Virus record (IMG/VR): IMGVR_UViG_2728369393_000001
Direction: 5' to 3' (one strand)
DNA: 64,000 bases
Source of the DNA: a virus
Lineage: Duplodnaviria; Heunggongvirae; Uroviricota; Caudoviricetes
Both the position numbers and the translations under genes were made by a program. Positions 1-12,244 of the stretch are shown in pieces. The notes below the pieces were generated by a model. The model ran no database searches. It was not told where the DNA came from and saw only the letters and a program-made list of their open reading frames with translations. The first letter of the stretch is position 1, and each line of letters opens with the position of its first letter.

Positions 1-68
1 GTCCGCAGGGCGGGGTGACAAGTTACTTATCTTACAATGAGGCTTCACAACATTGATTAGGGAAAATC

Positions 69-514: not shown

Positions 515-3133
515 ATGAATGACGTTACAGTTGTTACATCGGTTACTTACCCATCACCCGAGTCGTTGGCTCTGGTGGCTGATGTGCAATACCACGAACC
601 ATATCTGTCAGCCGCTCTAAACCGAAAATTCAGGGGAATTGTTGACCCGGGATTTTATGCTGGTTTCTTGCCTAAGCCTGGCGGTGGAATGAACCTGTTA
701 ATCACCTCAGTGGATGGAGATAAAACCGCTGGCGCGGCGTCAGTGGATATTGGTGAATTCTACCAGGTAACTATTCAGCATCGTAAGGATATCTCTCTTG
801 CACTTAACGCAGGCAAGAAATATGCAATTGTGCTGAAGGGAAGATACCTTCTTGGAGAAGATACCTATCAGGTGAATACCGCGTCACATATTCATGCAGC
901 TGAATTTGTTGCCAGAACCTATACCGATTCATATCAGTTAGGTGATGGGGAACTGCTGGTTTGTACGGTGAATATCCCTGCTGGCGTATCTACCATTACT
1001 CAAGAGATGATTGATACATCCGAGCGTATCAACCGCACGATCGGCATTGATATTTCAGACTCTGTAACCAGTACCAGAAGTGATGTTGCTGCGAGTTCGC
1101 TGGCAGTTAAAAAAGCCTACGATCTGGCGAAAAGCAAATATACGGCGCAGGATGCAAGCACAACGCAAAAGGGATTAGTTCAGCTCAGTAGTGCCACTAA
1201 CAGTACGTCCGAAGTGCTGGCCGCCACACCGAAAGCTGTCAAGGCTGCATATGACCTGGCTAACGGGAAGTATACAGCCCAGGATGCAACCACGACACAA
1301 AAAGGGATAGTTCAGCTCAGTAGCGACACCAACAGCACTTCTGAAACATTAGCTGCAACTCCAAAAGCGGTTAAAGCTGCATACGATCTAGCAGCCGGAA
1401 AGGCACCATCCAGTCATACACATCCCTGGAATCAGATCACTGGTGTGCCAACAGCTTCATTGACAGCGAAAGGCATCACTCAGCTCAGTAGTGCCACTAA
1501 CAGCACGTCTGAAGTGCTGGCCGCCACACCGAAAGCTGTCAAGGCTGCATATGACCTGGCTAACGGGAAGTATACAGCCCAGGATGCAACCACGACACAA
1601 AAAGGGATAGTTCAGCTCAGTAGCGACACCAACAGCACTTCTGAAACATTAGCTGCAACTCCAAAAGCGGTTAAAGCTGCATACGATCTAGCAGCCGGAA
1701 AGGCACCATCCAGTCATACACATCCCTGGAATCAGATCACTGGTGTGCCAACAGCTTCATTGACAGCGAAAGGCATCACTCAGCTCAGTAGTGCCACTAA
1801 CAGCACGTCTGAAGTGCTGGCCGCCACACCGAAAGCTGTCAAGGCTGCATATGACCTGGCTAACGGGAAGTATACAGCCCAGGATGCAACCACGACACAA
1901 AAAGGGATAGTTCAGCTCAGTAGCGACACCAACAGCACTTCTGAAACATTAGCTGCAACTCCAAAAGCGGTTAAAGCTGCATACGATCTAGCAGCCGGAA
2001 AGGCACCATCCAGTCATACACATCCCTGGAATCAGATCACTGGTGTGCCAACAGCTTCATTGACAGCGAAAGGCATCACTCAGCTCAGTAGTGCCACTAA
2101 CAGTACGTCCGAAGTGCTGGCCGCCACACCGAAAGCTGTCAAGGCTGCATATGATTTGGCTAACGGGAAGTATACAGCCCAGGATGCAACCACGACACAA
2201 AAAGGGATAGTTCAGCTCAGTAGCGACACCAACAGCACTTCTGAAACATTAGCTGCAACTCCAAAAGCGGTTAAAGCTGCATACGATCTAGCAGCCGGAA
2301 AGGCACCATCCAGTCATACACATCCCTGGAATCAGATCACTGGTGTGCCAACAGCTTCATTGACAGCGAAAGGCATCACTCAGCTCAGTAGTGCCACTAA
2401 CAGCACGTCTGAAGTGCTGGCCGCCACACCGAAAGCTGTCAAGGCTGCATATGATTTGGCTAATGGAAAGCAAGCGGCAGACGCTACGCTCACTGCTCTA
2501 GCGGCACTAGCTACAGCAGCAGATAAACTCCCTTATTTCACAGGTGTTGATCGTGCCGCGTTAACTGCATTGACAAGTGTTGGACGCGCCATTCTTGGTA
2601 AGACCAGTATTCAGAGCGTTCTTGATTACCTTGGTTTAGGGGAAGGCTCGGCGCTGCCCGTTGGTGTACCTATTCCATGGCCCTCAGCCACACCGCCAAC
2701 GGGGTGGCTGAAATGCAATGGTGCAGCATTTTCTTCTGAAAAGTACCCAAATCTGGCAAAGGTTTACCCAACGTTAAAATTACCTGATTTACGCGGTGAG
2801 TTTATCCGTGGCTGGGATGATGGGCGAGGGATTGACTCTGGTCGCTCTATTTTAAGCGAGCAAGGATATGCAACGGAGGATCATGCTCACGGATTACCGT
2901 CAAAATCAACCGTAGCAACTGACCGCTCAATTAATTTCTACTTTGACGAGGCATGGGCTACTAGTGGTAATACGGGAGTTATCAGATGGGGGAACACAAG
3001 CGATGCAGGATTGCCAGCCCCTAATTATGGAACTTTTAAAACATATAAACAGTCCGTAGCTAATTTAGGTACTGCTGGCTTAGAAACCCGCCCTCGTAAT
3101 ATTGCATTTAATTATATTGTGAGGGCGGATTAA
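515..3133 (+). CDS. S: tail fibre protein: constant N-terminal part with 100-aa tandem repeats fused to the currently expressed variable C-terminal collar / receptor-binding domain
   Basis: ATG (MNDVTVV) 29 codons into track ORF 428..3133; repeats KAVKAAYDLA..TQKGIVQLSS; C-terminus GEGSALPVGVPIPWP..TGWLKCNGAAFSS..RGEFIRGWDDGRG (tail collar-like) ending RPRNIAFNYIVRAD. Confidence 0.88.
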   Translation: MNDVTVVTSVTYPSPESLALVADVQYHEPYLSAALNRKFRGIVDPGFYAGFLPKPGGGMNLLITSVDGDKTAGAASVDIGEFYQVTIQHRKDISLALNAGKKYAIVLKGRYLLGEDTYQVNTASHIHAAEFVARTYTDSYQLGDGELLVCTVNIPAGVSTITQEMIDTSERINRTIGIDISDSVTSTRSDVAASSLAVKKAYDLAKSKYTAQDASTTQKGLVQLSSATNSTSEVLAATPKAVKAAYDLANGKYTAQDATTTQKGIVQLSSDTNSTSETLAATPKAVKAAYDLAAGKAPSSHTHPWNQITGVPTASLTAKGITQLSSATNSTSEVLAATPKAVKAAYDLANGKYTAQDATTTQKGIVQLSSDTNSTSETLAATPKAVKAAYDLAAGKAPSSHTHPWNQITGVPTASLTAKGITQLSSATNSTSEVLAATPKAVKAAYDLANGKYTAQDATTTQKGIVQLSSDTNSTSETLAATPKAVKAAYDLAAGKAPSSHTHPWNQITGVPTASLTAKGITQLSSATNSTSEVLAATPKAVKAAYDLANGKYTAQDATTTQKGIVQLSSDTNSTSETLAATPKAVKAAYDLAAGKAPSSHTHPWNQITGVPTASLTAKGITQLSSATNSTSEVLAATPKAVKAAYDLANGKQAADATLTALAALATAADKLPYFTGVDRAALTALTSVGRAILGKTSIQSVLDYLGLGEGSALPVGVPIPWPSATPPTGWLKCNGAAFSSEKYPNLAKVYPTLKLPDLRGEFIRGWDDGRGIDSGRSILSEQGYATEDHAHGLPSKSTVATDRSINFYFDEAWATSGNTGVIRWGNTSDAGLPAPNYGTFKTYKQSVANLGTAGLETRPRNIAFNYIVRAD
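1165..2460 (+). repeat. tandem direct repeat, 300-bp unit, about 4.3 near-identical copies, inside the tail fibre CDS
   Basis: cagctcagtagtgccactaacag recurs at about 1189, 1489, 1789, 2089, 2389; copies differ by a few SNPs. Confidence 0.9.
2619..2644 (+). other. Hin/Gin-family recombination crossover site at the expressed tail fibre locus (constant/variable junction)
   Basis: TTCTTGATTACC-TT-GGTTTAGGGGAA; left half resembles hix-type half-site, right half is shared with all silent cassette sites; homology to cassettes begins exactly at the TT core. Confidence 0.7.
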
Positions 3134-3138
3134 TTATA

Positions 3139-3750
3139 TCAACTGGCTGTAGAAAGTTGTTTTTCAGGCCAGTTGAGATCTGGTGCCGTGGTTAAATCCA
3201 TCGCGTTCAGCTCGTCTATATAATCTAGCACGGAGTTAAGCTGCGTGGTTTCTGCCTGCGTCAACTTCCGTCCAGCCCGTAATTTCAACTGAATCAGACT
3301 AATGGAATCCATCGCAGTATCAATCAATGACTGACGTTTTGTTTCTGCTGCCTCTACAGCTGCACTATGTTGAGCCTCAGTATCAACCACCCATTTCTCT
3401 CCATCCCATTTGTCGTATGGTGTTAGCGGGGCGATAGTGGTTGTATTTTCCGGATAGTCACCCAACACCGTGATTTCTTCGGGATTCCCAGTGTCAATGC
3501 TATAGACAGTTTCGCCACGATGATCTGGCACATACTCCCATGAACTTAAATCCTCTGAACGGAGAATCGCATAACCTGCTTTATGTGAGCCTGGAGCATC
3601 CAAACAAGAATTTGCCGGAATACCAACGCCAACAGCAAGATATTCAGTTGATGCAGAAATATATTCCCGATTACCACCATCATAGTTATAAACGATAATG
3701 TTTCCTGCCTGTATGGCTATAAGTTCGCTATTTAATATCGCATTATCCAT
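3139..3750 (-). CDS. tail fibre assembly protein (Tfa / U-like chaperone) belonging to silent cassette 1
   Basis: 203 aa, ATG; directly downstream of cassette 1 on the minus strand; Tfa-like conserved C-terminal region. Confidence 0.7.
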   Translation of the reverse strand: MDNAILNSELIAIQAGNIIVYNYDGGNREYISASTEYLAVGVGIPANSCLDAPGSHKAGYAILRSEDLSSWEYVPDHRGETVYSIDTGNPEEITVLGDYPENTTTIAPLTPYDKWDGEKWVVDTEAQHSAAVEAAETKRQSLIDTAMDSISLIQLKLRAGRKLTQAETTQLNSVLDYIDELNAMDLTTAPDLNWPEKQLSTAS

Positions 3751-3760
3751 TATGCTGCTC

Positions 3761-4211
3761 TCACAATATAATTGAAGGCAATGTTACGTGGGCGGGTTTC
3801 ATTCCCCCAGATAACTCCGTTCTGTATTGACTGGTAAATTTACCATTAATCGCTCCTTGCCGGACGGCGTTATCTGTCGACAACAGACTATCCCCCCCTC
3901 TGTCATTTGGCACCAATACCGTGTTATCCCACGCGTCCCATGACCGAATATTATGATAATGACTTCCTGTTAACCACCCCTGTATGCTTAAGATGACCCT
4001 TCCCGCATCCACACCTCGCCCATCATCCCAACCACGGATAAACTCACCGCGTAAATCCGGTAATTTATTGGTGGGGTAGGCCTTTGCCAGTTTGGGATAC
4101 ATTTCAGAAGAAAATGCTGCACCATTGCATTTTAGCCAGCCCGTTGGTGGTGTTTCTAAGGGCCACGGAACGGGCACACCAACAGGCAGTGCAGAGCCTT
4201 CCCCAAACCAA
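3761..4211 (-). other. silent tail fibre C-terminal cassette 1 (promoterless gene segment); 1-bp deletion at the junction puts it out of frame relative to the other cassettes
   Basis: encodes GEGSALPVGVPVPWPLETPPTGWLKCNGAAFSSEMYPKLAKAYPTNKLPDLRGEFIRGWDDGRG..; junction reads ttccccaaacc (C4) where other copies have C5 or CCCCT. Confidence 0.75.
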
Positions 4212-4223
4212 CGTTTTTATGCC
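4199..4223 (-). other. cassette crossover site 1 (inverted relative to the expressed-locus site)
   Basis: plus strand TTCCCCAAACC-AA-CGTTTTTATGCC; contains the stop codon of cassette 2. Confidence 0.65.
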
Positions 4224-4687
4224 GCCCTTACGATGTAATTAAATGCAATATTACGGGGCGGGTTTCAGATGCTGTACGAACTGAGCGAGAGGCGTCGAAT
4301 GTCCAGTTATAAGAGCCATAACCCTCAATAATTTCCGTTTCCTTTAGGCCTGTAGATAATACTTGACCATGTTGACTAAATGGCCCTGAACTAAGTACAT
4401 CTCTAAAAAGCTGAGTACGCCCGAAAGAACCAACAATATTCTGAATTGCATCATTCTGTGCAGATAATAAATTACGGCCAGAGTCAATCCCCCGCCCGTC
4501 ATCCCAGCCGCGAATAAATTCGCCCGTAGATCCGGCAATTTATTAGTAGGGTAAACCTTTGCCAGATTTGGGTACTTTTCAGAAGAAAATGCTGCACCAT
4601 TGCATTTCAGCCACCCCGTTGGCGGTGTGGCTGAGGGCCATGGAACAGGTACACCAACGGGCAGTGCCGAGCCTTCCCCCAAACCAA
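4212..4687 (-). pseudogene. silent tail fibre cassette 2, degenerate (two internal -1 frameshifts)
   Basis: conserved N-part intact to PDLR, then frame lost (cgggcgaa where others have cggggcgaa); second 1-bp loss before the terminal RPRNIAFNYIVRAA motif. Confidence 0.7.
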
Positions 4688-4699
4688 CGTTTTTATGCC
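4674..4699 (-). other. cassette crossover site 2
   Basis: TTCCCCCAAACC-AA-CGTTTTTATGCC. Confidence 0.65.
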
Positions 4700-5174
4700 G
4701 CCCTTACGATGTAATTAAATGCGATATTTCGTGGACGGGTTTCACTCCCGCCAGTATTACCAATACTCCCTCGAGAATGAAGTGTCGGTGATGGAATCAA
4801 ATTCCCTCCTGTATTTGAGGCATCAAGCCCCCGTCCTTGTGTGTATGTTTTTTTGAAAATTGTCGCCAGCTCCCATTCATCTTTTGTGTCGTAACCATCA
4901 TTGGCTACAACAATATGTCGGTGCTTTTCCAGCATTCCTGTCTGAATGCTCAATAAAGCACGTCCCGCATCCACCCCGCGCCCATCATCCCAGCCGCGAA
5001 TAAATTCTCCCCGTAAATCCGGTAATTTATTGGTGGGGTAGGCCTTTGCCAGTTTGGGATACATTTCAGAAGAAAATGCTGCTCCGTTACATTTCAGCCA
5101 CCCCGTTGGCGGTGTTTCTAAGGGCCACGGAACGGGCACGCCAACGGGCAATGCTGAGCCTTCCCCCAAACCAA
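4693..5174 (-). other. silent tail fibre C-terminal cassette 3 (intact)
   Basis: in-frame from junction GEGSALPVGVPVPWP to ..TRPRNIAFNYIVRAA stop; track ORF 4693..5169. Confidence 0.8.
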
Positions 5175-5186
5175 CGTTTTTATGCC
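5161..5186 (-). other. cassette crossover site 3
   Basis: TTCCCCCAAACC-AA-CGTTTTTATGCC. Confidence 0.65.
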
Positions 5187-5688
5187 GCCCTTACGATATA
5201 ATTAAATGCAACGTTGCGAGGGCGAGTTTCTGTACCTACATTTCCACTAATTTCACCATAACGTTTAACACTACGAGAGCTAATAGCTCGTAGTGAGGAA
5301 GGCACCTTATGACCGGGTTCGTCCGTTTTAACTATTCCCCCGTCACCGTATGTAGCTAGTATTCCTGGATTTACGCCTTCCCGTGCACTTCCTGCGGCGA
5401 GTCCGTCCCCTGTCCATAATTCCATATAGTGTGCATGGTCCAAAATTGTGTGTGGCTGCCAATTAAGCAAAGCGCGGCCAGCATCCACCCCGCGCCCATC
5501 ATCCCAGCCACGGATAAATTCACCGCGTAAATCAGGTAATTTTAACGTTGGGTAAACCTTTGCCAGATTTGGGTACTTTTCAGAAGAAAATGCTGCACCA
5601 TTGCATTTCAGCCACCCCGTTGGCGGTGTGGCTGAGGGCCATGGAATAGGTACACCAACGGGCAGCGCCGAGCCTTCCCCTAAACCAA
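5180..5688 (-). other. silent tail fibre C-terminal cassette 4 (intact; conserved part nearly identical to the expressed copy)
   Basis: hand translation 5488..5690 has no stop; encodes GEGSALPVGVPIPWPSATPPTGWLKCNGAAFSSEKYPNLAKVYPTLKLPDLRGEFIRGWDDGRGVDAGRALL..RPRNVAFNYIVRAA. Confidence 0.8.
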
Positions 5689-5700
5689 CGTTTTCATGCC
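5675..5700 (-). other. cassette crossover site 4
   Basis: TTCCCCTAAACC-AA-CGTTTTCATGCC. Confidence 0.65.
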
Positions 5701-6127
5701 GCCCTTACGATATAATTAAACGCAATGTTACGAGGACGAATGGTTACATAATTAACCCCATCACCTCGTGAAGGCCCTGCAAATGAAAAACGGGAAAATC
5801 CTGGTTGGTTAGAAACAATTTGGTCATAGTTATTGATTGAATGACCAGACCCAATGTCGAAATTACCTCCGTAATGAGAAAAACTTGTACCATCCTGCCC
5901 TGAAAGCAGGGTACGTCCCGCATCAATCCCGCGCCCATCATCCCAGCCACGGATAAATTCACCGCGTAAATCCGGTAATTTATTGGTGGGGTAGGCTTTT
6001 GCCAGTTTGGGATACATTTCAGAAGAAAATGCTGCACCATTGCATTTTAGCCAGCCCGTTGGTGGTGTTTCTAAGGGCCACGGAACGGGCACACCAACAG
6101 GCAGTGCAGAGCCTTCCCCCAAACCAA
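5694..6127 (-). other. silent tail fibre C-terminal cassette 5 (intact)
   Basis: track ORF 5694..6122, GEGS..RPRNIAFNYIVRAA. Confidence 0.8.
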
Positions 6128-6139
6128 CGTTTTTATGCC
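6114..6139 (-). other. cassette crossover site 5
   Basis: TTCCCCCAAACC-AA-CGTTTTTATGCC. Confidence 0.65.
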
Positions 6140-6566
6140 GCCCTTACGATGTAATTAAATGCGATATTTCGCGGCCTGACAGCAACAAAATTTATACCAT
6201 CACCTACAGAGTTACTGGTGAAATTAAATCGTGAAAATCCTGGCTGATTTCCGACGATGCCATCATGAAAATTAATTGCGTGCCCTGCACCATCGCCTAT
6301 ATTTCCGGCACGCTGAGAAAAGTTTGTAGCCTCTTGGCTGCTTAATAATGCTCGCCCATTGTCCACACCTCGTCCATCATCCCAACCTCGAATAAATTCG
6401 CCCCGTAGATCCGGCAATTTATTAGTGGGGTAAACCTTTGCCAGATTTGGGTACTTTTCAGAAGAAAATGCTGCTCCGTTACATTTCAGCCACCCCGTTG
6501 GTGGTGTGGCGGAGGGCCATGGAACAGGTACACCAACGGGCAGCGCCGAGCCTTCCCCTAAACCAA
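6133..6566 (-). other. silent tail fibre C-terminal cassette 6 (intact)
   Basis: track ORF 6133..6417 starts at an internal TTG; hand translation shows the frame stays open up to the junction. Confidence 0.75.
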
Positions 6567-6578
6567 CGTTTTTATGCC
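6553..6578 (-). other. cassette crossover site 6
   Basis: TTCCCCTAAACC-AA-CGTTTTTATGCC. Confidence 0.65.
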
Positions 6579-7038
6579 GCCCTTACGATATAATTAAAGG
6601 CAATATTACGAGGACGGTTTTCATTAGCTGTTGGCACGACACGAGAGGCGTCGAATCCAAGGTCATCGGTTTTGCCTATATCAGTTGTGTTATTCGGCAT
6701 TCTCGCAGATCGTGTTCCTGCATCATAAAAAGCCCCTCTGATTGCATCAAAAGACATGCCAATCCCGCCATCGGCGAACCCCTCAATATTTCTTATTGCA
6801 TCCCCCTGTGAAGATAATAATTGTCGCCCGGCATCCACACCACGTCCGTCATCCCAGCCACGAATAAATTCACCGCGTAAATCCGGCAATTTATTAGTAG
6901 GGTAAGCCTTTGCCAGATTTGGGTACTTTTCAGAAGAAAATGCTGCTCCGTTACATTTCAGCCACCCCGTTGGCGGAGTGGCTGAGGGCCACGGAACAGG
7001 TACGCCAACAGGCAATGCTGAGCCTTCCCCCAAACCAA
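6572..7038 (-). other. silent tail fibre C-terminal cassette 7 (intact)
   Basis: track ORF 6572..7033, GEGS..NRPRNIAFNYIVRAA. Confidence 0.8.
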
Positions 7039-7050
7039 CGTTTTTATGTG
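7025..7050 (-). other. cassette crossover site 7
   Basis: TTCCCCCAAACC-AA-CGTTTTTATGTG. Confidence 0.6.
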
Positions 7051-7552
7051 GCCCTTACAATGTAATTAAAAGCAACGTTGCGGGGGCGCATTGATATCCA
7101 TGCCCCGGTAAAATTATCCTCTGCCGTCCTTTGAGTGCCTGTTATGGAGTTATCTGATGATGCTGGAACATAATCGCTATTATCTCCTGCTTTAGGATTA
7201 GCAGGGTTTCCAACAGTTATAACAGAATCAGCAGTAGCATAAGCGATACCTACTTTGACATTAGTAGTCAGATCGACACCGTAATAATCCTGCAAAGCTG
7301 TACGAATAAATGTTGCAGTCTGACCACTTAGCAATGAACGCCCTGTATCAATCCCTCTCGAATCATCCCAACCACGGATAAACTCACCGCGTAAATCAGG
7401 TAATTTTAACGTTGGGTAAACCTTTGCCAGATTTGGGTACTTTTCAGAAGAAAATGCTGCTCCGTTACATTTCAGCCACCCCGTTGGTGGTGTGGCGGAG
7501 GGCCACGGAACAGGCACACCAACGGGCAGCGCCGAGCCTTCCCCTAAACCAA
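7044..7552 (-). other. silent tail fibre C-terminal cassette 8 (invertase-proximal)
   Basis: track ORF 7044..7517 plus upstream conserved junction; ends MRPRNVAFNYIVRAT. Confidence 0.75.
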
Positions 7553-7564
7553 CGTTTTAGTCTT
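7539..7564 (-). other. cassette crossover site 8, last of the array, 55 bp from the invertase start
   Basis: TTCCCCTAAACC-AA-CGTTTTAGTCTT. Confidence 0.6.
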
Positions 7565-7618
7565 AATCCCTACCTATACCAACGATGTATTTTTAACTAA
7601 ACAAAGAGGTTGTTTTTC

Positions 7619-8191
7619 ATGCAAATTGGCTACATTCGTGTGTCAACAAATGACCAAAACACAGATTTACAAAGAAATGCACTGAATTGCGCAGGATGTG
7701 AACTGATTTTTGAAGATAAAATAAGCGGAACAAAGTCAGCCAGACCAGGCTTGAAAAAGCTGCTCAGAACGTTATCAGAAGGAGATACGCTGGTTGTCTG
7801 GAAGCTGGATAGGCTTGGCAGAAGTATGAAACACCTTATCACGCTTATAGAGGAGTTGCGGGAAAAAGGTGTTAATTTCCGTAGTCTGACAGACAGTATT
7901 GACACATCAACACCCATGGGGCGTTTCTTTTTTCATGTCATGGGTGCTTTAGCAGAAATGGAACGTGAATTAATTGTTGAGAGAACACTGGCCGGACTGG
8001 CAGCTGCACGCGAACAGGGACGCATTGGCGGACGTCGCCCGAAGTTGACAAAAGAACAACATGAGCAAATAGCGAGGTTGATCGAAAATGGCTACAGCAG
8101 GAAACAGTTGGCAATTATTTACGATATCGGTGTATCGACGATTTATCGTTATCATCCTGTAGAGAAGCGCCAAACTCAATCTGAGCTGTAA
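7619..8191 (+). CDS. cin: serine recombinase DNA invertase (Hin/Gin/Cin/Pin/Min family)
   Basis: MQIGYIRVSTNDQNTDLQ (catalytic Ser), C-terminal HTH; ATG at 7619 with AGAGG RBS; adjacent to the cassette array. Confidence 0.9.
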   Translation: MQIGYIRVSTNDQNTDLQRNALNCAGCELIFEDKISGTKSARPGLKKLLRTLSEGDTLVVWKLDRLGRSMKHLITLIEELREKGVNFRSLTDSIDTSTPMGRFFFHVMGALAEMERELIVERTLAGLAAAREQGRIGGRRPKLTKEQHEQIARLIENGYSRKQLAIIYDIGVSTIYRYHPVEKRQTQSEL

Positions 8192-8626
8192 TTCTAATGC
8201 CGCGTCGGTGTAATTTATCTTGATAGAATAGGTACATTTATCGCGCGGCACATCAATTCGATGTATCTAGCGCCTGCTGACCGCTAATGAAAACTGTTCT
8301 CGAAATGTTGTCCCTAGTCCGAGACTAGGGTATCACCTCTGGAAAGCATACGCAGAACCTTTTTTAACCCAGGGTGCCCAGTTTTTTTGCTGCTCGCCTT
8401 ATTCGCAAAAATTAGCTCACATCCTGCGCTTTCAAGTGCTTTTCACTGCATAGCTGTGTTTTGTTCATTTGTCTATATGCATACATAGCCTATTAACATA
8501 TTTTCTGCCCACTATCGTTATTTATTGCAAGCTACAGGTTTTAATTAACAAAACCAGTGTGTGTGGAAATCACAAAGTGCATACCGTTCTCAAATGTTGT
8601 TCAACTTACTGTTGTATAGGTAAAAA

Positions 8627-8890
8627 ATGACATTTTATGTACATATCGTGATGTTATCCCTTCTTGGTGGGGTGTATTCGTATTTGAGTGGGCTATGTGA
8701 AAACCGTTACGAGTCTTCATGCAAGAAATTGCTGGCCGAATGTATTTCCGCCGTACTTGCTGGCTTTATTGGCATGTATCTCGCGGAATATAAGGACATG
8801 AATGAAAGCCTTCAGAGCTGCATGGTTCTTATTTTCAGCGCCAATAGCAGGCTTATTATTGAAGGTTCCAAAAGTCGGTTGAATAGGTAA
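8627..8890 (+). CDS. small membrane protein upstream of the holin gene
   Basis: 87-aa hydrophobic ORF. Confidence 0.35.
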   Translation: MTFYVHIVMLSLLGGVYSYLSGLCENRYESSCKKLLAECISAVLAGFIGMYLAEYKDMNESLQSCMVLIFSANSRLIIEGSKSRLNR

Positions 8891-8964
8891 GTCTCTTATG
8901 CAACATAACCGGTTGAGAAGTTACTTTGCATACCATTACCTCCTGACAACGTAGGAGGGAACTT

Positions 8965-9294
8965 GTGCTTGACACACAGGAATTAGCTCCAGTTGCTATT
9001 GCGCTCCTGCTTTCAGTAATTGGTGGGATAGGCACGTTCCTGATGGATGTCCGAGACGGTCGCCAGTCTGGCAATTTGTTGGGATTGGTTACGGAGATCT
9101 TTGTTGCAGTGACAGCTGGCGCGGTGGCGTACCTATTGGGGCAACACGAGGGCTGGGAGTTATCAATTACGTACTTAATGGTAACGATAGCCAGCAATAA
9201 CGGTCATGAGGTGATTTCAGGGATGAAACGAGTGAATATCGATAGCATTCTGAATGTTCTTACAAGTTTGGTGAAAAAGGGAGGCGGGAAATGA
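8965..9294 (+). CDS. lydA: holin-like membrane protein (P1 LydA-like)
   Basis: 109 aa with hydrophobic segments; position between invertase and darA operon; length matches recalled LydA. Confidence 0.55.
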   Translation: MLDTQELAPVAIALLLSVIGGIGTFLMDVRDGRQSGNLLGLVTEIFVAVTAGAVAYLLGQHEGWELSITYLMVTIASNNGHEVISGMKRVNIDSILNVLTSLVKKGGGK

Positions 9295-9734
9295 TTGGCT
9301 GGGGTGTATGCGTTCTTGCGTTAGCCTTAGCCGATCGCTATTTGCTAAAACGCAAGGACATCACGCATTTAGAACTTGGTGATGTGGAAATTAAACCGGG
9401 TTTCATCCGGGTGCCGTTCAAATACCGGTCTAAATTCCCGTTTTTGCGCGGCGCAACGGTCAGATATTGGATCCGCGATGTTCAGAAGCCGACGACAGTG
9501 ATTGAAGGCGAACAACGTTGTTTGACGTCGGCTGAACAGGGCGAAAACAGTGAATGGTTGTACATACCCACTGAATATATGGGTAAAGGAGAGCGACTGT
9601 GGCATTTCAACGTCATGGTTACGCATGGCGACTCGTTCATTAACCCGTTGTATCGGATTTTCCCTGTTACTCAGCAAATCCGCAGAAGTTACGTAATAAA
9701 TCTCGCACAGGATGTGTCAGATGACGAAAAATAA
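9291..9734 (+). CDS. lydB: antiholin-like protein (P1 LydB-like)
   Basis: 147 aa; start overlaps lydA stop; synteny. Confidence 0.5.
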   Translation: MIGWGVCVLALALADRYLLKRKDITHLELGDVEIKPGFIRVPFKYRSKFPFLRGATVRYWIRDVQKPTTVIEGEQRCLTSAEQGENSEWLYIPTEYMGKGERLWHFNVMVTHGDSFINPLYRIFPVTQQIRRSYVINLAQDVSDDEK

Positions 9735-10323
9735 GTATGCAACGGTCGATTTTGACCAGGTTAATGAAAAGGGGCTGAAATCCCTTATCGCGGCGATCAA
9801 TAAAACCGGTGTTACGGTAATTGAGGTTGACTCCAGCAACCGCGCAACAACGAAAGATGGCGTTAAAGTTAAAACCGCAAAGCTGGTTCTTAACGACGGA
9901 CAAATTCTTGCCATACAGGTAAACGATACTGGCGATATATCGTCTGTGAGGCTGAATGGAAAAGCTATTCCTAACGCTCAGTCGCCGGATATCAAGACGC
10001 TTGGTACCGTCATGGGGCAAGCGGCCCGCAAAAACTCCGCAAAATTCCAGAAATCACTGATCGCCAAAGCGAAACGTGTTGCCAATCCGGTAGACAAGAA
10101 ACCGGCAGTAAAATCCAACTTTCAGCGCCTGCAAGAGGCAAAACAGCGGAATGCTCAGGTGGTTGCCGCTTATAAATCAGCGCAGAACTCGGTGTCTTTC
10201 AATCAACAGCAGATCACTGATTTGCGGGCGAAGCTGGATAAGGAGACAGGCCGACTCAATAACGAAAAGGCCCGAAATGGCGAACTCAAACGCCGTCTTA
10301 AGCAACTGAAAGCAGGAAATTAA
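9721..10323 (+). CDS. hdf: Hdf-like protein (shares a segment with DarA)
   Basis: ATG 3 codons into track ORF 9712..10323; KNSAKFQ segment shared with the downstream DarA; coiled-coil C-terminus. Confidence 0.55.
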   Translation: MTKNKYATVDFDQVNEKGLKSLIAAINKTGVTVIEVDSSNRATTKDGVKVKTAKLVLNDGQILAIQVNDTGDISSVRLNGKAIPNAQSPDIKTLGTVMGQAARKNSAKFQKSLIAKAKRVANPVDKKPAVKSNFQRLQEAKQRNAQVVAAYKSAQNSVSFNQQQITDLRAKLDKETGRLNNEKARNGELKRRLKQLKAGN

Positions 10324-10324
10324 C

Positions 10325-12244
10325 ATGGAACAGTTCAATATCAATAAAGGGGTGACGATCAAGCCTGGGCTTGACGTGCTTCCCCCGCCAGTGACTGATG
10401 ATGAATATCGCGCATTAATGGCCGGTGAGGACCGCTATCTGATGACGGAATCCAACACCCTGGAGGAAATCGAGGCTACGTTCTTCTATGACACGCCGAT
10501 CCACTGGTGTGCTACGGATTTACTGGAGGCGATTAGTTCTACTCGTTTGCAGTTACACCGGACCATGCAGGCATTTGTCCGGGCATTGAACCAGAAGCTG
10601 AATGGTACCGGAATCTCTGCGGGGAGTGATAAAACGGGGGATGTGGCCCAGAGCGGCGCGCGCGCGATCGGCGGTGCTGAAATTGGCCGGGCACGTAACG
10701 TTAACGGGCTGCCGGTCCTGCCAGCCATTATTCCGCTCAGTGATGGTCAGACTATCAGCATTCTGTTTCATAGCCCGACAGCGGAAAACCGGATCACCAA
10801 TAGCGATACGCTGGTTGCTTTCCAGTTCTTACTGAATAAAAAAGACGTTACTCACACCGTTGCTCCGATGAGTGGACGTGATATGACGCTGGCGCAGGTC
10901 ACCATGAAACTTGCCAACCTTGCAGAGAAAAACTCGGCAAAATTCCAGCGTGCGCAGAAGAAGAAAAAAGCCCTTGTTGATGAAATAACCCAACTACAGG
11001 CTGACAGTGACCAGAAAGAGGACGCCATGAGCGACCTCGCGGATCAGGTGGCAGCGGTAGAAGGGCAGAAGGCAGATCTGGAGCAGAAAATTAACGCTGT
11101 TGCATCGGAAGCGGATTCTCTTTATGAAGAGAATGAGCGTTTGCAGGGGGAGATTGATCGGCTCAATCGCACTGGTGGGCGCGATACCATTGCCCCTGCG
11201 GGGATGACTGGTGGGCACTCTCGCGCGCTGACGGATCGCCTTGCCAGTATCAAAAATCGTATGCATATGGACGGGGAAGCGACGCTCAGTAATGGTGCAT
11301 CAATGAAGCAATTCATTGGGGACGGCGAAGGGTATATCCAGTTAACCGATCCGGATGGCAGCGTATACATGATCAAGGCTAAATCCATACAGGGTGTGGA
11401 CATGGCAGATGCGATCGGCAAGCTGTTTAAAGCCTATAAAGCGGGTAATGTATCGGAATACCTGGTCCAACCAGAAGAACATAAACCGGAAAACGTCGAA
11501 CCTGAACCAGCGGAGGATACCGGTAGCTCTTCGCCTGAACCAGAAGTCTCTGTAGGTGCATATCGATATGCCCTGCAAATGCGTCCGGCGGCCCCTGGCG
11601 CAATACCTGAAGGTAACAAAGCAATTCTGCCGCGCCCTGATGAAGGTGACCCGTATTATGAATATGCACGCTACGGCATTGCTACTTACGATACCCCGCT
11701 TTCTGATCAGCAAATGAGTGAGTACGACCTGAAGTTATTGCCTCGCGAGGATTCTTTCGATTTCCTGGCGAAGACACTTACTAATGGTCCGTTTGGCAAA
11801 TATGCACAAAAAGCTCTGGAGCTGGCCACCAGCTCACCAGACGAGTTCCGCGTAATGCTGAAAACTCAGTTTCAAAAAACTTTCCCCAATATTGCGTTTC
11901 CTGGGGGCGCTGGCACCGAGAAAATGGTGCAGAGCATGATCAATGCATTGCAGGCCGAAGTCGGTGAGATTACTCAGCCAGAACCGGCCCCGGCACAGCC
12001 TGATGAAACGGTTAGCGAAGCAGATGCAGAGGCTAATAAAGCCATTGAATATCTCAATAACGTGATGGATATGCAAAGCACTGACATGGCGGAGATCCGT
12101 AACGCCCGGGGCAATGTCCGGGAAGCGATTGCAGCCCTTCAGGCTGCCGGACGTTTTGAGGAAAACGAAGAGCTGGTTAACGGCGCAGCTCGCCACCTGG
12201 CTGATCTGTTGGTAGCAATCCAGAAAGCGGGGGTAGCGGCATGA
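10325..12244 (+). CDS. darA: DarA-like capsid-packaged antirestriction protein
   Basis: 639 aa; position after lydAB-hdf; size and synteny consistent with P1 DarA. Confidence 0.7.
   Translation: MEQFNINKGVTIKPGLDVLPPPVTDDEYRALMAGEDRYLMTESNTLEEIEATFFYDTPIHWCATDLLEAISSTRLQLHRTMQAFVRALNQKLNGTGISAGSDKTGDVAQSGARAIGGAEIGRARNVNGLPVLPAIIPLSDGQTISILFHSPTAENRITNSDTLVAFQFLLNKKDVTHTVAPMSGRDMTLAQVTMKLANLAEKNSAKFQRAQKKKKALVDEITQLQADSDQKEDAMSDLADQVAAVEGQKADLEQKINAVASEADSLYEENERLQGEIDRLNRTGGRDTIAPAGMTGGHSRALTDRLASIKNRMHMDGEATLSNGASMKQFIGDGEGYIQLTDPDGSVYMIKAKSIQGVDMADAIGKLFKAYKAGNVSEYLVQPEEHKPENVEPEPAEDTGSSSPEPEVSVGAYRYALQMRPAAPGAIPEGNKAILPRPDEGDPYYEYARYGIATYDTPLSDQQMSEYDLKLLPREDSFDFLAKTLTNGPFGKYAQKALELATSSPDEFRVMLKTQFQKTFPNIAFPGGAGTEKMVQSMINALQAEVGEITQPEPAPAQPDETVSEADAEANKAIEYLNNVMDMQSTDMAEIRNARGNVREAIAALQAAGRFEENEELVNGAARHLADLLVAIQKAGVAA

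What the first reader, a model, noticed from the sequence alone, without database searches (positions are those of the whole stretch)
4199..7564. Stop codon of each cassette is embedded in the crossover site of the next
On the minus strand each cassette ends ..GCG GCA TAA and the TAA lies inside the left half-site (GGCATAAAAACG) of the next cassette's crossover site, so the array has no spacer: stop, 2-bp core, next conserved junction. Every site therefore serves both as recombination site and translational terminator, and site spacing (about 430-520 bp) equals cassette length. This compact layout also leaves about 200-bp direct repeats that could support RecA-dependent cassette deletion or duplication.
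Basis: seen in the sequence. Interest (0 to 1): 0.5.

Follow-up and report, generated by a model that had tools for sequence, protein, structure and literature searches.

The report
Shuffling tail-fibre tips of P1-like plasmid
This is the known "Min" multiple-inversion switch of P1/p15B-type phage-plasmids, here with nine recombination sites; the silent tail-fibre tip cassettes abut with no spacer, so the stop codon of one cassette sits inside the recombination site of the next, which is true and tidy but ordinary for this family.

Summary
Nine 26-bp crossover sites (12-nt half-site, TT core, 12-nt half-site) exist in the window. One lies inside the expressed tail-fibre gene S on the plus strand. 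Eight lie on the minus strand, each at the head of a silent 3' cassette. In seven junctions the stop codon of the upstream cassette occupies positions 5-7 of the left half-site: five GGCATAA, one GGCATGA, one CACATAA. Site spacing (439-514 bp) equals cassette length.

The locus also holds a serine invertase 74% identical to P1 Cin, a single tail-fibre assembly gene, and cassettes 96-100% identical to a plasmid reported as 99% identical to the p15B min region. It is therefore the Min multiple-inversion system described in 1990-92.

Related plasmids carry the same cassettes in other orders and orientations. Comparing them confines the exchange point to the 13 nt AAAACG-TT-GGTTT. Across relatives the embedded codon is always a stop (TAA 84, TGA 68, TAG 7).

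Cassette number varies from 2 to 13 sites.

P1 cixL already shows a stop codon (of cin) inside a crossover site. Novelty: already known. Interest is low.

The parts
20..38 (+). P1-type late promoter (LPs homologue) upstream of R and S
   Evidence: Exact match to the motif AAGTTACTT-N4-TANNAT, derived from the annotated P1 LPs and LPdar promoters. The only other exact match is at 8918-8936 (+). There is none on the minus strand near the array.
515..3133 (+). Tail-fibre gene S: constant part Sc (515-2632) fused to the currently expressed variable part Sv0 (2633-3133)
   Evidence: Pfam Phage_fiber_2 repeats (E 8e-186) and Collar domain. The ATG at 515 corresponds to the annotated start in relatives. 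A 300-nt unit is repeated 4.3 times at 1180-2470.
2619..2644 (+). Crossover site in S (Sc/Sv junction): TTCTTGATTACC TT GGTTTAGGGGAA
   Evidence: It reads in frame as ..D Y L|G L G E... It has the same register as P1 cixR, TTATCCAATACC TT GGTTTAAGAGAA.
3139..3750 (-). The only tail-fibre assembly (chaperone) gene, tfa; its start overlaps the stop of cassette c1
   Evidence: Pfam Caudo_TAP, E 3e-30. tblastn finds no second copy in the 64 kb.
3750..4211 (-). Cassette c1 (silent; frameshifted in this window by two 1-nt deletions in G runs)
   Evidence: The cassette is intact in pCDF6_3 (L001).
4198..4223 (-). Site 1: GGCATAAAAACG TT GGTTTGGGG-AAG. The right half lacks one G. The left half holds the c2 stop at 4217-4219.
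4212..4687 (-). Cassette c2 (silent; two 1-nt deletions in G/C runs)
4674..4699 (-). Site 2: GGCATAAAAACG TT GGTTTGGGGGAA. It holds the c3 stop at 4693-4695.
4688..5174 (-). Cassette c3 (intact, 159 codons from the core)
   Evidence: Collar domain.
5161..5186 (-). Site 3: GGCATAAAAACG TT GGTTTGGGGGAA. It holds the c4 stop at 5180-5182.
5175..5688 (-). Cassette c4 (intact)
5675..5700 (-). Site 4: GGCATGAAAACG TT GGTTTAGGGGAA. It holds the c5 stop, a TGA, at 5694-5696.
   Evidence: The TGA variant follows c5 in every relative examined.
5689..6127 (-). Cassette c5 (intact)
6114..6139 (-). Site 5: GGCATAAAAACG TT GGTTTGGGGGAA. It holds the c6 stop at 6133-6135.
6128..6566 (-). Cassette c6 (intact)
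6553..6578 (-). Site 6: GGCATAAAAACG TT GGTTTAGGGGAA. It holds the c7 stop at 6572-6574.
6567..7038 (-). Cassette c7 (intact)
   Evidence: Collar domain.
7025..7050 (-). Site 7: CACATAAAAACG TT GGTTTGGGGGAA. It holds the c8 stop at 7044-7046.
   Evidence: The CACATAA variant follows c8 in every relative examined.
7039..7552 (-). Cassette c8 (intact)
7539..7564 (-). Site 8 (invertase-proximal): AAGACTAAAACG TT GGTTTAGGGGAA. The left half is non-coding, with no in-register stop.
7619..8191 (+). Serine DNA invertase (Min/Cin/Gin/Hin family), transcribed away from the array
   Evidence: Pfam Resolvase (2e-51) and HTH_7. 74% identity to P1 Cin. The best solved relatives are the Gin structures 4M6F and 3UJ3, E 4e-92 and 2e-91.
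7637..7708 (+). Segment homologous to the annotated recombinational enhancer inside P1 cin (inferred)
   Evidence: 58/72 nt identical to the P1 enhancer (nt 19-90 of cin). The following 90-nt windows of the gene show 61-74%. This is suggestive only, because the segment is also coding.

Best explanation
The region is a Min-type multiple DNA inversion system ('phage shufflon') of a P1/p15B-like phage-plasmid.

Components. A serine invertase gene (7619-8191) sits beside nine 26-bp crossover sites that all share the asymmetric core TT. One site lies in frame inside tail-fibre gene S, at the boundary between the constant and variable parts. The other eight head silent 3' cassettes on the opposite strand.

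Strand exchange (inferred from the Hin/Gin/Cin family). The invertase pairs two sites in inverted orientation, probably with host Fis bound to an enhancer in the 5' part of its own gene. It cuts both sites at the core, rotates the half-complexes and religates. This inverts everything between the sites and fuses a new cassette in frame to Sc.

Why the stop is in the site. Exchange is at the core. Each core-to-core unit is therefore a complete module: right half-site (codons G-L-G-E), a ~205-nt conserved block, a ~200-270-nt variable receptor-binding part, a ~50-nt conserved end, a stop codon, then AAACG. The left half-site of the next site is simply the 3' end of this module, and so it contains the stop. 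When a module is fused to Sc, that stop ends the fibre protein. Cassettes downstream are out of frame by one nucleotide and stay untranslated.

Combinatorics. Seven directional modules plus one central bidirectional segment (Sv0 - tfa - c1) give 80,640 reachable arrangements and nine possible fibre tips. Two of the nine (c1, c2) are frameshifted as this window is written.

Homologous recombination. The conserved blocks are also substrates for homologous recombination. It has made them mosaic and probably contributes to cassette gain and loss.

Status of each step. Shown here: the sites, frames, stops, invertase homology, shuffled arrangements in relatives and mosaic blocks. Inferred: catalysis by this invertase, Fis/enhancer dependence, and RecA involvement.
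For: Sites and stops.

Invertase.

Homology of the sites to P1 cix, in the same reading register.

Sites of this type have been seen to invert. EC958 prophage Phi2 carries TCCTCAATTACC TT GGTTTAGGAGAA and GAGAGATAAACG TT GGTTTGGGGGAA. The paper reports separately assembled alternative-orientation PacBio contigs for the Phi1, Phi2 and Phi4 tail-fibre regions (PMC4134206).

Relatives carry the same nine units in other arrangements.
- The units are 96-100% identical.
- pCDF6_3 reads c4> c5> c6> Sv0> tfa< c1< c7< c8< c2< c3<. pMCR_SCKP-LL83 reads c6> c4> c2> c5> c8> c3> Sv0> c1< c7<.
- The ten bounded arrays and most of the 38 IMG/VR fragments obey the rule expected for inversion at asymmetric cores: '>' units lie left of the central segment and '<' units lie right of it. 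A few short fragments (for example L015, L035 and L040) do not fit the rule as my clustering labelled them. I did not examine them.

The exchange point is mapped by polymorphisms.
- The left-half variants GGCATGA (after c5) and CACATAA (after c8) keep their upstream cassette but acquire 5-6 different downstream cassettes.
- In the closely related set (window, L001, L002) the A/G variant of the right half stays with the downstream cassette.
- Exchange is therefore within AAAACG-TT-GGTTT.

A breadth-first search over allowed inversions gives 240 isomers for 4 directional units. This is the number I recall being published for the six-site p15B system. It gives 80,640 for the window, and pCDF6_3 is reachable from the window in 6 inversions.

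Identity with the p15B min region: PMC5786510 reports pMCR_SCKP-LL83 as 99% identical over 92% coverage, and the window's units are 96-100% identical to that plasmid.

The stop is conserved as TAA, TGA or TAG in 159 junctions.

Mosaic blocks and copy-number variation.
Against: - No read-level data from this clone show inversion. All evidence for activity is comparative.
- Site 1 has an 11-nt right half (one G missing) and cassettes c1 and c2 are frameshifted in this window. At least part of the array may be damaged here, or mis-sequenced.
- The enhancer is inferred only from 81% identity within coding sequence.
- The outer six positions of the junction left half-sites (GGCATA) match the family's usual TTATCN/TTCTCN poorly. 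Binding strength is unknown.
- The p15B papers themselves could not be read. The figures of six sites and 240 isomers are from memory.
- The counts over relatives include redundant lineages. The IMG/VR loci were retrieved with a pattern that required CATRAAAACG at one site per locus.
Confidence: 0.9

Rival explanations
1. The different cassette orders in relatives arise only by RecA-type homologous recombination between the ~205-bp conserved blocks (inverted copies giving inversions, direct copies giving deletions and duplications). On this view the 26-bp 'sites' are just part of the repeat.
For: - The blocks are long and similar enough: 82-98% identity with exact runs up to 169 nt.
- Block haplotypes are clearly recombinant and unlinked from the variable parts.
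- Cassette number varies and exact duplicates exist.
Against: - In the near-identical set (window, L001, L002) every exchange maps to the 13 nt around the core, not to scattered points in the block.
- An intact Cin/Gin-family invertase is adjacent in every bounded array examined except the phage record L047, where the gene is annotated split in two.
- The sites have the 12-2-12 cix/gix geometry with one invariant asymmetric core.
- Sites of this sequence type belong to a prophage region for which alternative-orientation PacBio contigs were reported in one culture (PMC4134206).
Confidence: 0.04
2. In this particular plasmid the array is a decaying relic. The switch still looks complete but is partly or wholly inactive, and the silent cassettes are drifting to pseudogenes.
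For: - Four 1-nt deletions disrupt c1 and c2, and one of them shortens the right half of site 1.
- The flanking 4,940 nt show no indel at all against four relatives, so the assembly is not generally indel-prone.
- All eight cassettes sit on one strand in a single run.
Against: - Six cassettes, eight sites and the invertase gene are intact.
- All four lesions are in G/C homopolymer runs and three lie in multi-copy conserved blocks. That is typical of unpolished long-read errors in repeats.
- Other assemblies show length noise in the same G run of the half-site, for example GGTTTAGGGGGA in L044.
Confidence: 0.12
3. The overlap of stop codon and half-site has no functional significance of its own. 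It is inherited from one ancestral module that was copied in tandem, and it persists because both the stop and the A-rich inner half-site are needed separately.
For: - All junctions are homologous: the same ..NYIVRAA* end, the same register and the same AAACG.
- The family's half-sites are naturally A-rich where TAA fits.
- In P1 cixL an unrelated gene's stop (cin) also falls in the left half.
Against: This does not conflict with the main explanation. It disputes only the idea that compactness was selected. The substitutions seen at positions 6-7 are limited to those that keep a stop (TAA/TGA/TAG in 159 junctions). That shows selection on the stop, but it cannot show selection for the overlap.
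Confidence: 0.5

Closest known systems
Min multiple DNA inversion system of E. coli 15T- plasmid p15B (Sandmeier, Iida, Arber and colleagues, 1990-1992)
   Same: - A P1-related phage-plasmid backbone, with R, S, the invertible region, the invertase, then lydA/lydB/darA.
- A serine invertase transcribed away from the array.
- More than two crossover sites and alternative 3' ends fused to a constant tail-fibre 5' part.
- A repeated segment inside the constant part.
- The window's units are 96-100% identical to pMCR_SCKP-LL83. A paper reports that plasmid's region as 99% identical over 92% coverage to p15B min (PMC5786510).
- The architecture found here (directional modules plus one central bidirectional segment) reproduces the 240 isomers I recall for p15B.
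   Different: There are nine sites and nine variable parts here, against six as I recall for p15B, giving 80,640 possible arrangements instead of 240. I could not read the p15B papers or sequence, so I could not check whether they state that the stops lie inside the mix sites.
Cin/cix C-segment inversion of phage P1 (with Gin/gix of Mu, Hin/hix of Salmonella and Pin of e14)
   Same: - The invertase is 74% identical to Cin.
- The sites are 26 bp with a TT core, in the same register within S. P1 cixR is TTATCCAATACC TT GGTTTAAGAGAA.
- The enhancer position inside the invertase gene is homologous.
- P1 cixL (CAATCCTAAACC TT GGTTTAAGAGAA) already contains a stop codon, that of cin, in its left half.
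   Different: - P1 has two sites, two variable parts and two assembly genes (U and U').
- In P1, cin points towards the segment.
- The variable parts of P1 are unrelated in sequence and about 1.6 kb long.
R64 / IncI1 plasmid shufflon (Rci, sfx sites, pilV C-termini) and the Rin shufflon of Bifidobacterium prophages
   Same: The logic is the same: many sites, alternative C-terminal segments of an adhesin or receptor-binding protein, and many isomers (PMC6109161).
   Different: Those systems use tyrosine recombinases and short asymmetric sites. Here the recombinase is a serine invertase.

Membership tests
Din-family (Hin/Gin/Cin/Pin/Min) serine-invertase inversion system | A small serine recombinase, with an N-terminal resolvase catalytic domain and a C-terminal HTH, is encoded next to the invertible DNA | tested here: met
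   Pfam Resolvase (2e-51) and HTH_7 (3.5e-15). 74% identity to P1 Cin. Gin structures 4M6F and 3UJ3 match at E 4e-92 and 2e-91. The conserved GYIRVST serine motif is present.
Din-family (Hin/Gin/Cin/Pin/Min) serine-invertase inversion system | 26-bp crossover sites: two imperfectly symmetric 12-bp half-sites around a 2-bp asymmetric core that is identical in all partner sites | tested here: met
   Nine sites, all with core TT. The right halves are GGTTT[A/G]GGGGAA. The left halves end in ACC or ACG after an A/T-rich tract. They align with P1 cixL and cixR and with the EC958 prophage sites.
Din-family (Hin/Gin/Cin/Pin/Min) serine-invertase inversion system | A Fis-dependent recombinational enhancer in cis, within the 5' part of the invertase gene in P1 | tested here: inconclusive
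   The segment 7637-7708 is 58/72 identical to the annotated P1 enhancer. Third-codon positions are 14/24 identical there against 60/150 elsewhere. This is compatible with an enhancer but is not separable from coding constraint.
Din-family (Hin/Gin/Cin/Pin/Min) serine-invertase inversion system | Inversion actually occurs between sites in inverted orientation, with exchange at the core | tested here: met
   The evidence is comparative only. The same units occur in different orders and orientations in relatives, and the exchange interval is limited to 13 nt around the core. It was not tested within one clone.
Min-type multiple inversion region (p15B) | More than two crossover sites, giving overlapping invertible segments that assemble one variable tail-fibre gene from a constant 5' part and several alternative 3' parts | tested here: met
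   Nine sites. All cassettes begin GGT TTR GGG GAA directly after the core, and so are in frame with Sc ..TAC CTT. The isomer model reproduces 240 for a six-site system.
Min-type multiple inversion region (p15B) | Sequence identity to the p15B min region (GenBank X62121) | not testable with these tools
   X62121 is not in the searchable collections. The evidence is indirect: the window's units are 96-100% identical to pMCR_SCKP-LL83, which is reported as 99% identical over 92% coverage to p15B min (PMC5786510). The P1 record also notes p15B homology for the enhancer and lydA regions.
R64-type shufflon | A tyrosine recombinase (Rci) acting on sfx sites in pilV | tested here: not met
   The recombinase is a serine invertase and the target is a phage tail-fibre gene.

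The most novel reading that the evidence does not exclude
The stop-in-half-site layout may be more than inherited compactness.

First, because each core-to-core unit carries its own start of homology and its own terminator, any exchange at the cores moves or copies a complete, immediately usable fibre tip. Such an exchange could be site-specific, or could occur between sister copies in different isomeric states. This would let arrays grow from 2 to at least 13 sites.

Second, positions 5-7 of the left half-site are under double constraint. Only stop-preserving purine changes (TAA, TGA, TAG) are seen, which would mean the invertase tolerates A/G swaps there.

Third, a single assembly gene (tfa) serves nine tips that all end in the same ~17 residues. 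It is on the opposite strand from S in half of all isomers, with no late promoter of its own. This hints either that it is expressed in a way not yet described or that most tips fold without it.
Probability: 0.25. Interest if true: 0.35.

Novelty: already known. Interest (0 to 1): 0.18.

Why it matters
It matters little as a discovery. The locus is an instance of the p15B Min switch, which is common in P1-like phage-plasmids of E. coli, Klebsiella and Salmonella (248 plasmid records matched).

It has three practical uses.
- Annotation. The silent cassettes are routinely called as separate 'phage tail protein' genes, and the arrays are prone to assembly artefacts.
- Host range. Up to nine receptor-binding tips can be drawn from one gene.
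- Synthetic multi-state inversion devices. The modular core-to-core unit shows how to pack coding cassettes with no spacer.

Tried and rejected
- I tried to read the primary p15B papers (PMC206102, PMC329034), the P1 genome paper (PMC523184) and Johnson's 2015 review. None is held. Whether the 1991 paper states that stops lie within mix sites remains unverified.
- I checked whether promoters or terminators punctuate the array. The consensus scans gave no more hits than shuffles. The P1 late-promoter motif occurs only at 20-38 and 8918-8936 on the + strand.
- I considered the window's c1 and c2 frameshifts as a sign of a generally error-prone assembly. I rejected this as a general explanation, because 4,940 nt next to the array have no gaps against four relatives. 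Local repeat-polishing error remains possible.
- I tried to tell site-specific from homologous deletion or duplication by comparing duplicated cassettes. The copies are 100% identical over the whole unit, so the junctions carry no information.
- A first clustering run mislabelled the cassettes, because site 1 (with its missing G) escaped the pattern. I corrected this.
- The cluster 'n3' from the fuzzy site search is a false positive, an unrelated coding sequence. I excluded clusters n3 and n9 from the tallies.

Full report
**What is in the sequence**

On the plus strand a P1-type late promoter (20-38) precedes an R-like gene (69-503). The tail-fibre gene S follows at 515-3133. S contains Phage_fiber_2 repeats and a Collar domain.

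Convergent with S is the only tail-fibre assembly gene of the 64-kb window, at 3139-3750 on the minus strand (Caudo_TAP). Upstream of it on the minus strand lie eight head-to-tail cassettes (3750-7552). Each encodes a Collar domain followed by a divergent C-terminal part.

Next comes a 190-codon serine invertase gene on the plus strand (7619-8191). It has Resolvase and HTH_7 domains and is 74% identical to P1 Cin. Its closest solved relatives are the Gin structures 4M6F and 3UJ3, at E about 1e-92. Genes matching those annotated as holin/lysis (lydA/lydB-like) and darA in relatives follow. Megablast places the region in P1-like, mostly IncY, phage-plasmids. Of 248 plasmid records, 209 are from Escherichia.

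**Check of the observation**

The motif AAAACGTTGGTTTRGGGGAAGG occurs nine times with up to 3 mismatches, against none expected by chance. Written as half-site, core, half-site, the sites are:

| Site | Position | Sequence |
|---|---|---|
| S-gene site | 2619-2644, + | TTCTTGATTACC TT GGTTTAGGGGAA |
| Five junction sites | minus strand | GGCATAAAAACG TT GGTTTRGGGGAA |
| Site 4 (after c5) | 5675-5700, - | GGCATGAAAACG TT GGTTTAGGGGAA |
| Site 7 (after c8) | 7025-7050, - | CACATAAAAACG TT GGTTTGGGGGAA |
| Site 8 (invertase-proximal) | 7539-7564, - | AAGACTAAAACG TT GGTTTAGGGGAA |

In seven sites the in-frame stop of the upstream cassette occupies positions 5-7 of the left half. Core-to-core spacing (476, 487, 514, 439, 439, 472, 514 bp) equals cassette length.

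- There are seven junctions, not eight.
- One stop is TGA.
- One cassette ends GCC ACA TAA.
- Five nucleotides separate the stop from the core.
- The cassette next to tfa (c1) ends in TAATG, overlapping the tfa start, rather than in a site.
- The ninth site and the expressed variable part lie outside the reported range.

**The sites are cix-type crossover sites**

P1's annotated sites are cixR, TTATCCAATACC TT GGTTTAAGAGAA, and cixL, CAATCCTAAACC TT GGTTTAAGAGAA. They have the same geometry, the same core and the same reading register in S (..Y L|G L..).

A published table of prophage sites in E. coli EC958 includes TCCTCAATTACC TT GGTTTAGGAGAA and GAGAGATAAACG TT GGTTTGGGGGAA. That paper reports separately assembled alternative-orientation PacBio contigs for the tail-fibre regions of its Phi1, Phi2 and Phi4 prophages (PMC4134206).

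In every cassette the codons GGT TTR GGG GAA follow the core directly. Any cassette joined to Sc (..GAT TAC CTT) is therefore in frame. The upstream cassette's frame is offset by one nucleotide from the downstream cassette, so the embedded stop is what ends translation.

**Evidence that the array is shuffled, and where exchange occurs**

I fetched eight further plasmids and one phage genome of this group, together with 38 IMG/VR fragments that carry the junction motif.

The window's nine units (Sv0, c1-c8) recur at 96-100% identity but in other orders and orientations:
- pCDF6_3: c4> c5> c6> Sv0> tfa< c1< c7< c8< c2< c3<
- pMCR_SCKP-LL83: c6> c4> c2> c5> c8> c3> Sv0> c1< c7<

The ten bounded arrays and most fragments obey one rule. 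Forward units lie between Sc and a central segment (variable part, tfa, c1), and reverse units lie between that segment and the invertase gene. This is the rule expected if exchange happens only between inverted sites with an asymmetric core. A few short IMG/VR fragments (for example L015, L035 and L040) do not fit it as my clustering labelled them. I did not look into them.

Two natural markers locate the exchange. The left half GGCATGA always follows c5, and CACATAA always follows c8, whatever cassette comes next; there are five or six different partners for each. In the near-identical trio of window, L001 and L002, the A/G variant in the right half stays with the downstream cassette. Exchange is therefore confined to AAAACG-TT-GGTTT.

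**Combinatorics**

I modelled the array as seven directional units plus one bidirectional central segment. A breadth-first search over the allowed inversions reaches 80,640 arrangements. pCDF6_3 is six inversions from the window, and pMCR_SCKP-LL83 is eight.

The same model with four directional units gives 240. That is the number I remember from the abstract of Sandmeier et al. 1991 for the six-site p15B system. The p15B number is from memory, not from a tool.

**Identity with the known system**

A paper on pMCR_SCKP-LL83 states that its 5-kb invertible region is 99% identical, over 92% coverage, to the min region of p15B (PMC5786510). The window's units are 96-100% identical to that plasmid.

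Other papers describe Min as the coliphage or p15B shufflon that uses a serine invertase (PMC6109161; PMC6906374). The window therefore holds the Min system in an expanded, nine-site form.

**Is the embedded stop meaningful?**

Across all loci, sites preceded by a cassette end carry TAA (84), TGA (68) or TAG (7) at left-half positions 5-7. The single exception is a 1-nt deletion in an A run in one assembly. Invertase-proximal and Sc-type left halves have no in-register stop.

These counts include related lineages. One site per IMG/VR locus was selected by my search pattern, so they are not independent. Even so, the only substitutions seen are those that keep a stop.

All junctions are homologous: the same ..N-Y-I-V-R-A-A end and the same register. 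The overlap is therefore most simply inherited from one ancestral module that was copied, not evolved repeatedly. A stop codon inside a crossover site is also not new in the family, since the stop of cin lies in the left half of P1 cixL.

**The homologous-recombination idea**

The first 206 nt after each core are 82-98% identical between cassettes, with exact runs of 19-169 nt. From general knowledge, efficient RecA-dependent recombination in E. coli needs exact runs of roughly 25 bp, and most of these pairs exceed that.

Block haplotypes are not linked to the variable part. For example, c4 occurs with both VPIPWPSAT..EKYPNLAKVYPTLK and VPVPWPLET..EMYPKLAKAYPTNK. All four combinations of the PSAT/PLET and EKYPNLAKV/EMYPKLAKA segments exist. 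Recombination or gene conversion inside the block has therefore occurred.

Site number in bounded arrays is 2, 5, 6, 6, 9, 9, 9, 9, 9 and 13. Duplicated cassettes within one plasmid are identical over the whole unit. The 300-nt repeat in Sc also varies in copy number between relatives.

It cannot separate RecA-mediated events from rare invertase-mediated deletion, from exchange between sister copies, or from assembly artefacts. The EC958 paper warns of artefactual duplications in such regions.

**Oddities in this window**

Cassettes c1 and c2 carry four 1-nt deletions relative to pCDF6_3. All four are in G or C runs, and one shortens the right half of site 1. The adjacent 4,940 nt have no gaps against four relatives.

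These are therefore either real lesions or unpolished homopolymer errors confined to repeats. Other assemblies show length noise in the same G run.

tfa is convergent with S in this arrangement, and in half of all arrangements. No late-promoter motif lies on its strand. How the assembly protein is supplied in those states is not explained.

**Verdict**

However, the object is the long-known Min multiple-inversion system, and the stop-in-site overlap is an inherited feature of its modules with a precedent in P1. Novelty: already known. Interest is low.

Noticed in passing
window 3750-4687 (cassettes c1 and c2; site 1 at 4198-4223): Four single-base deletions relative to pCDF6_3, all in G or C homopolymer runs, break c1 and c2 and shorten the right half of site 1. 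The neighbouring 4,940 nt have no indel against four relatives. These are either real pseudogenisation or repeat-confined sequencing error.
   Followed up: partly
window 3139-3750 (-) and the whole 64 kb: There is only one tail-fibre assembly gene for nine alternative fibre tips. It is convergent with S in this arrangement and in half of the 80,640 possible ones. The P1 late-promoter motif occurs only at 20-38 (+) and 8918-8936 (+), never on its strand. All nine tips share the C-terminal residues RPRN(I/V)AFNYIVRA, most preceded by E-T; this is a possible common chaperone-docking end.
   Followed up: partly
window 1180-2470 (+): A 300-nt unit is repeated 4.3 times at 98% identity inside the constant part of S. 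Relatives have S genes that differ by multiples of about 300 nt, so this repeat array also expands and contracts.
   Followed up: partly
L002 (pPEC399_2, NZ_JBXSEY010000003.1) 4490-11256: This locus has thirteen sites, with exact duplicates (c8-c2-c8-c2, c7 twice, c5 twice), no annotated tfa and truncated central cassettes. It is either a real expansion or an assembly built from a mixed population of isomers.
   Followed up: no
L048 (phage P1, NC_005856) 1712-1742: The stop codon of cin (TAA) lies inside the left half of cixL, CAATCCTAAACC TT GGTTTAAGAGAA. A stop codon embedded in a crossover site is thus already visible in the P1 reference annotation.
   Followed up: yes
IMG/VR loci L009, L010, L018, L019, L022, L026, L034, L038, L040: In a second lineage the central bidirectional segment pairs c1-tfa with a c3-type variable part instead of Sv0. 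Additional cassette types (n1, n2, n4 and others) occur, mostly ending AGCATGA.
   Followed up: no
window 7610-7619: The mechanical ORF for the invertase starts at a TTG at 7610 (193 codons). The ATG at 7619 gives the 190-codon protein annotated in relatives, and it aligns with the start of P1 Cin.
   Followed up: yes
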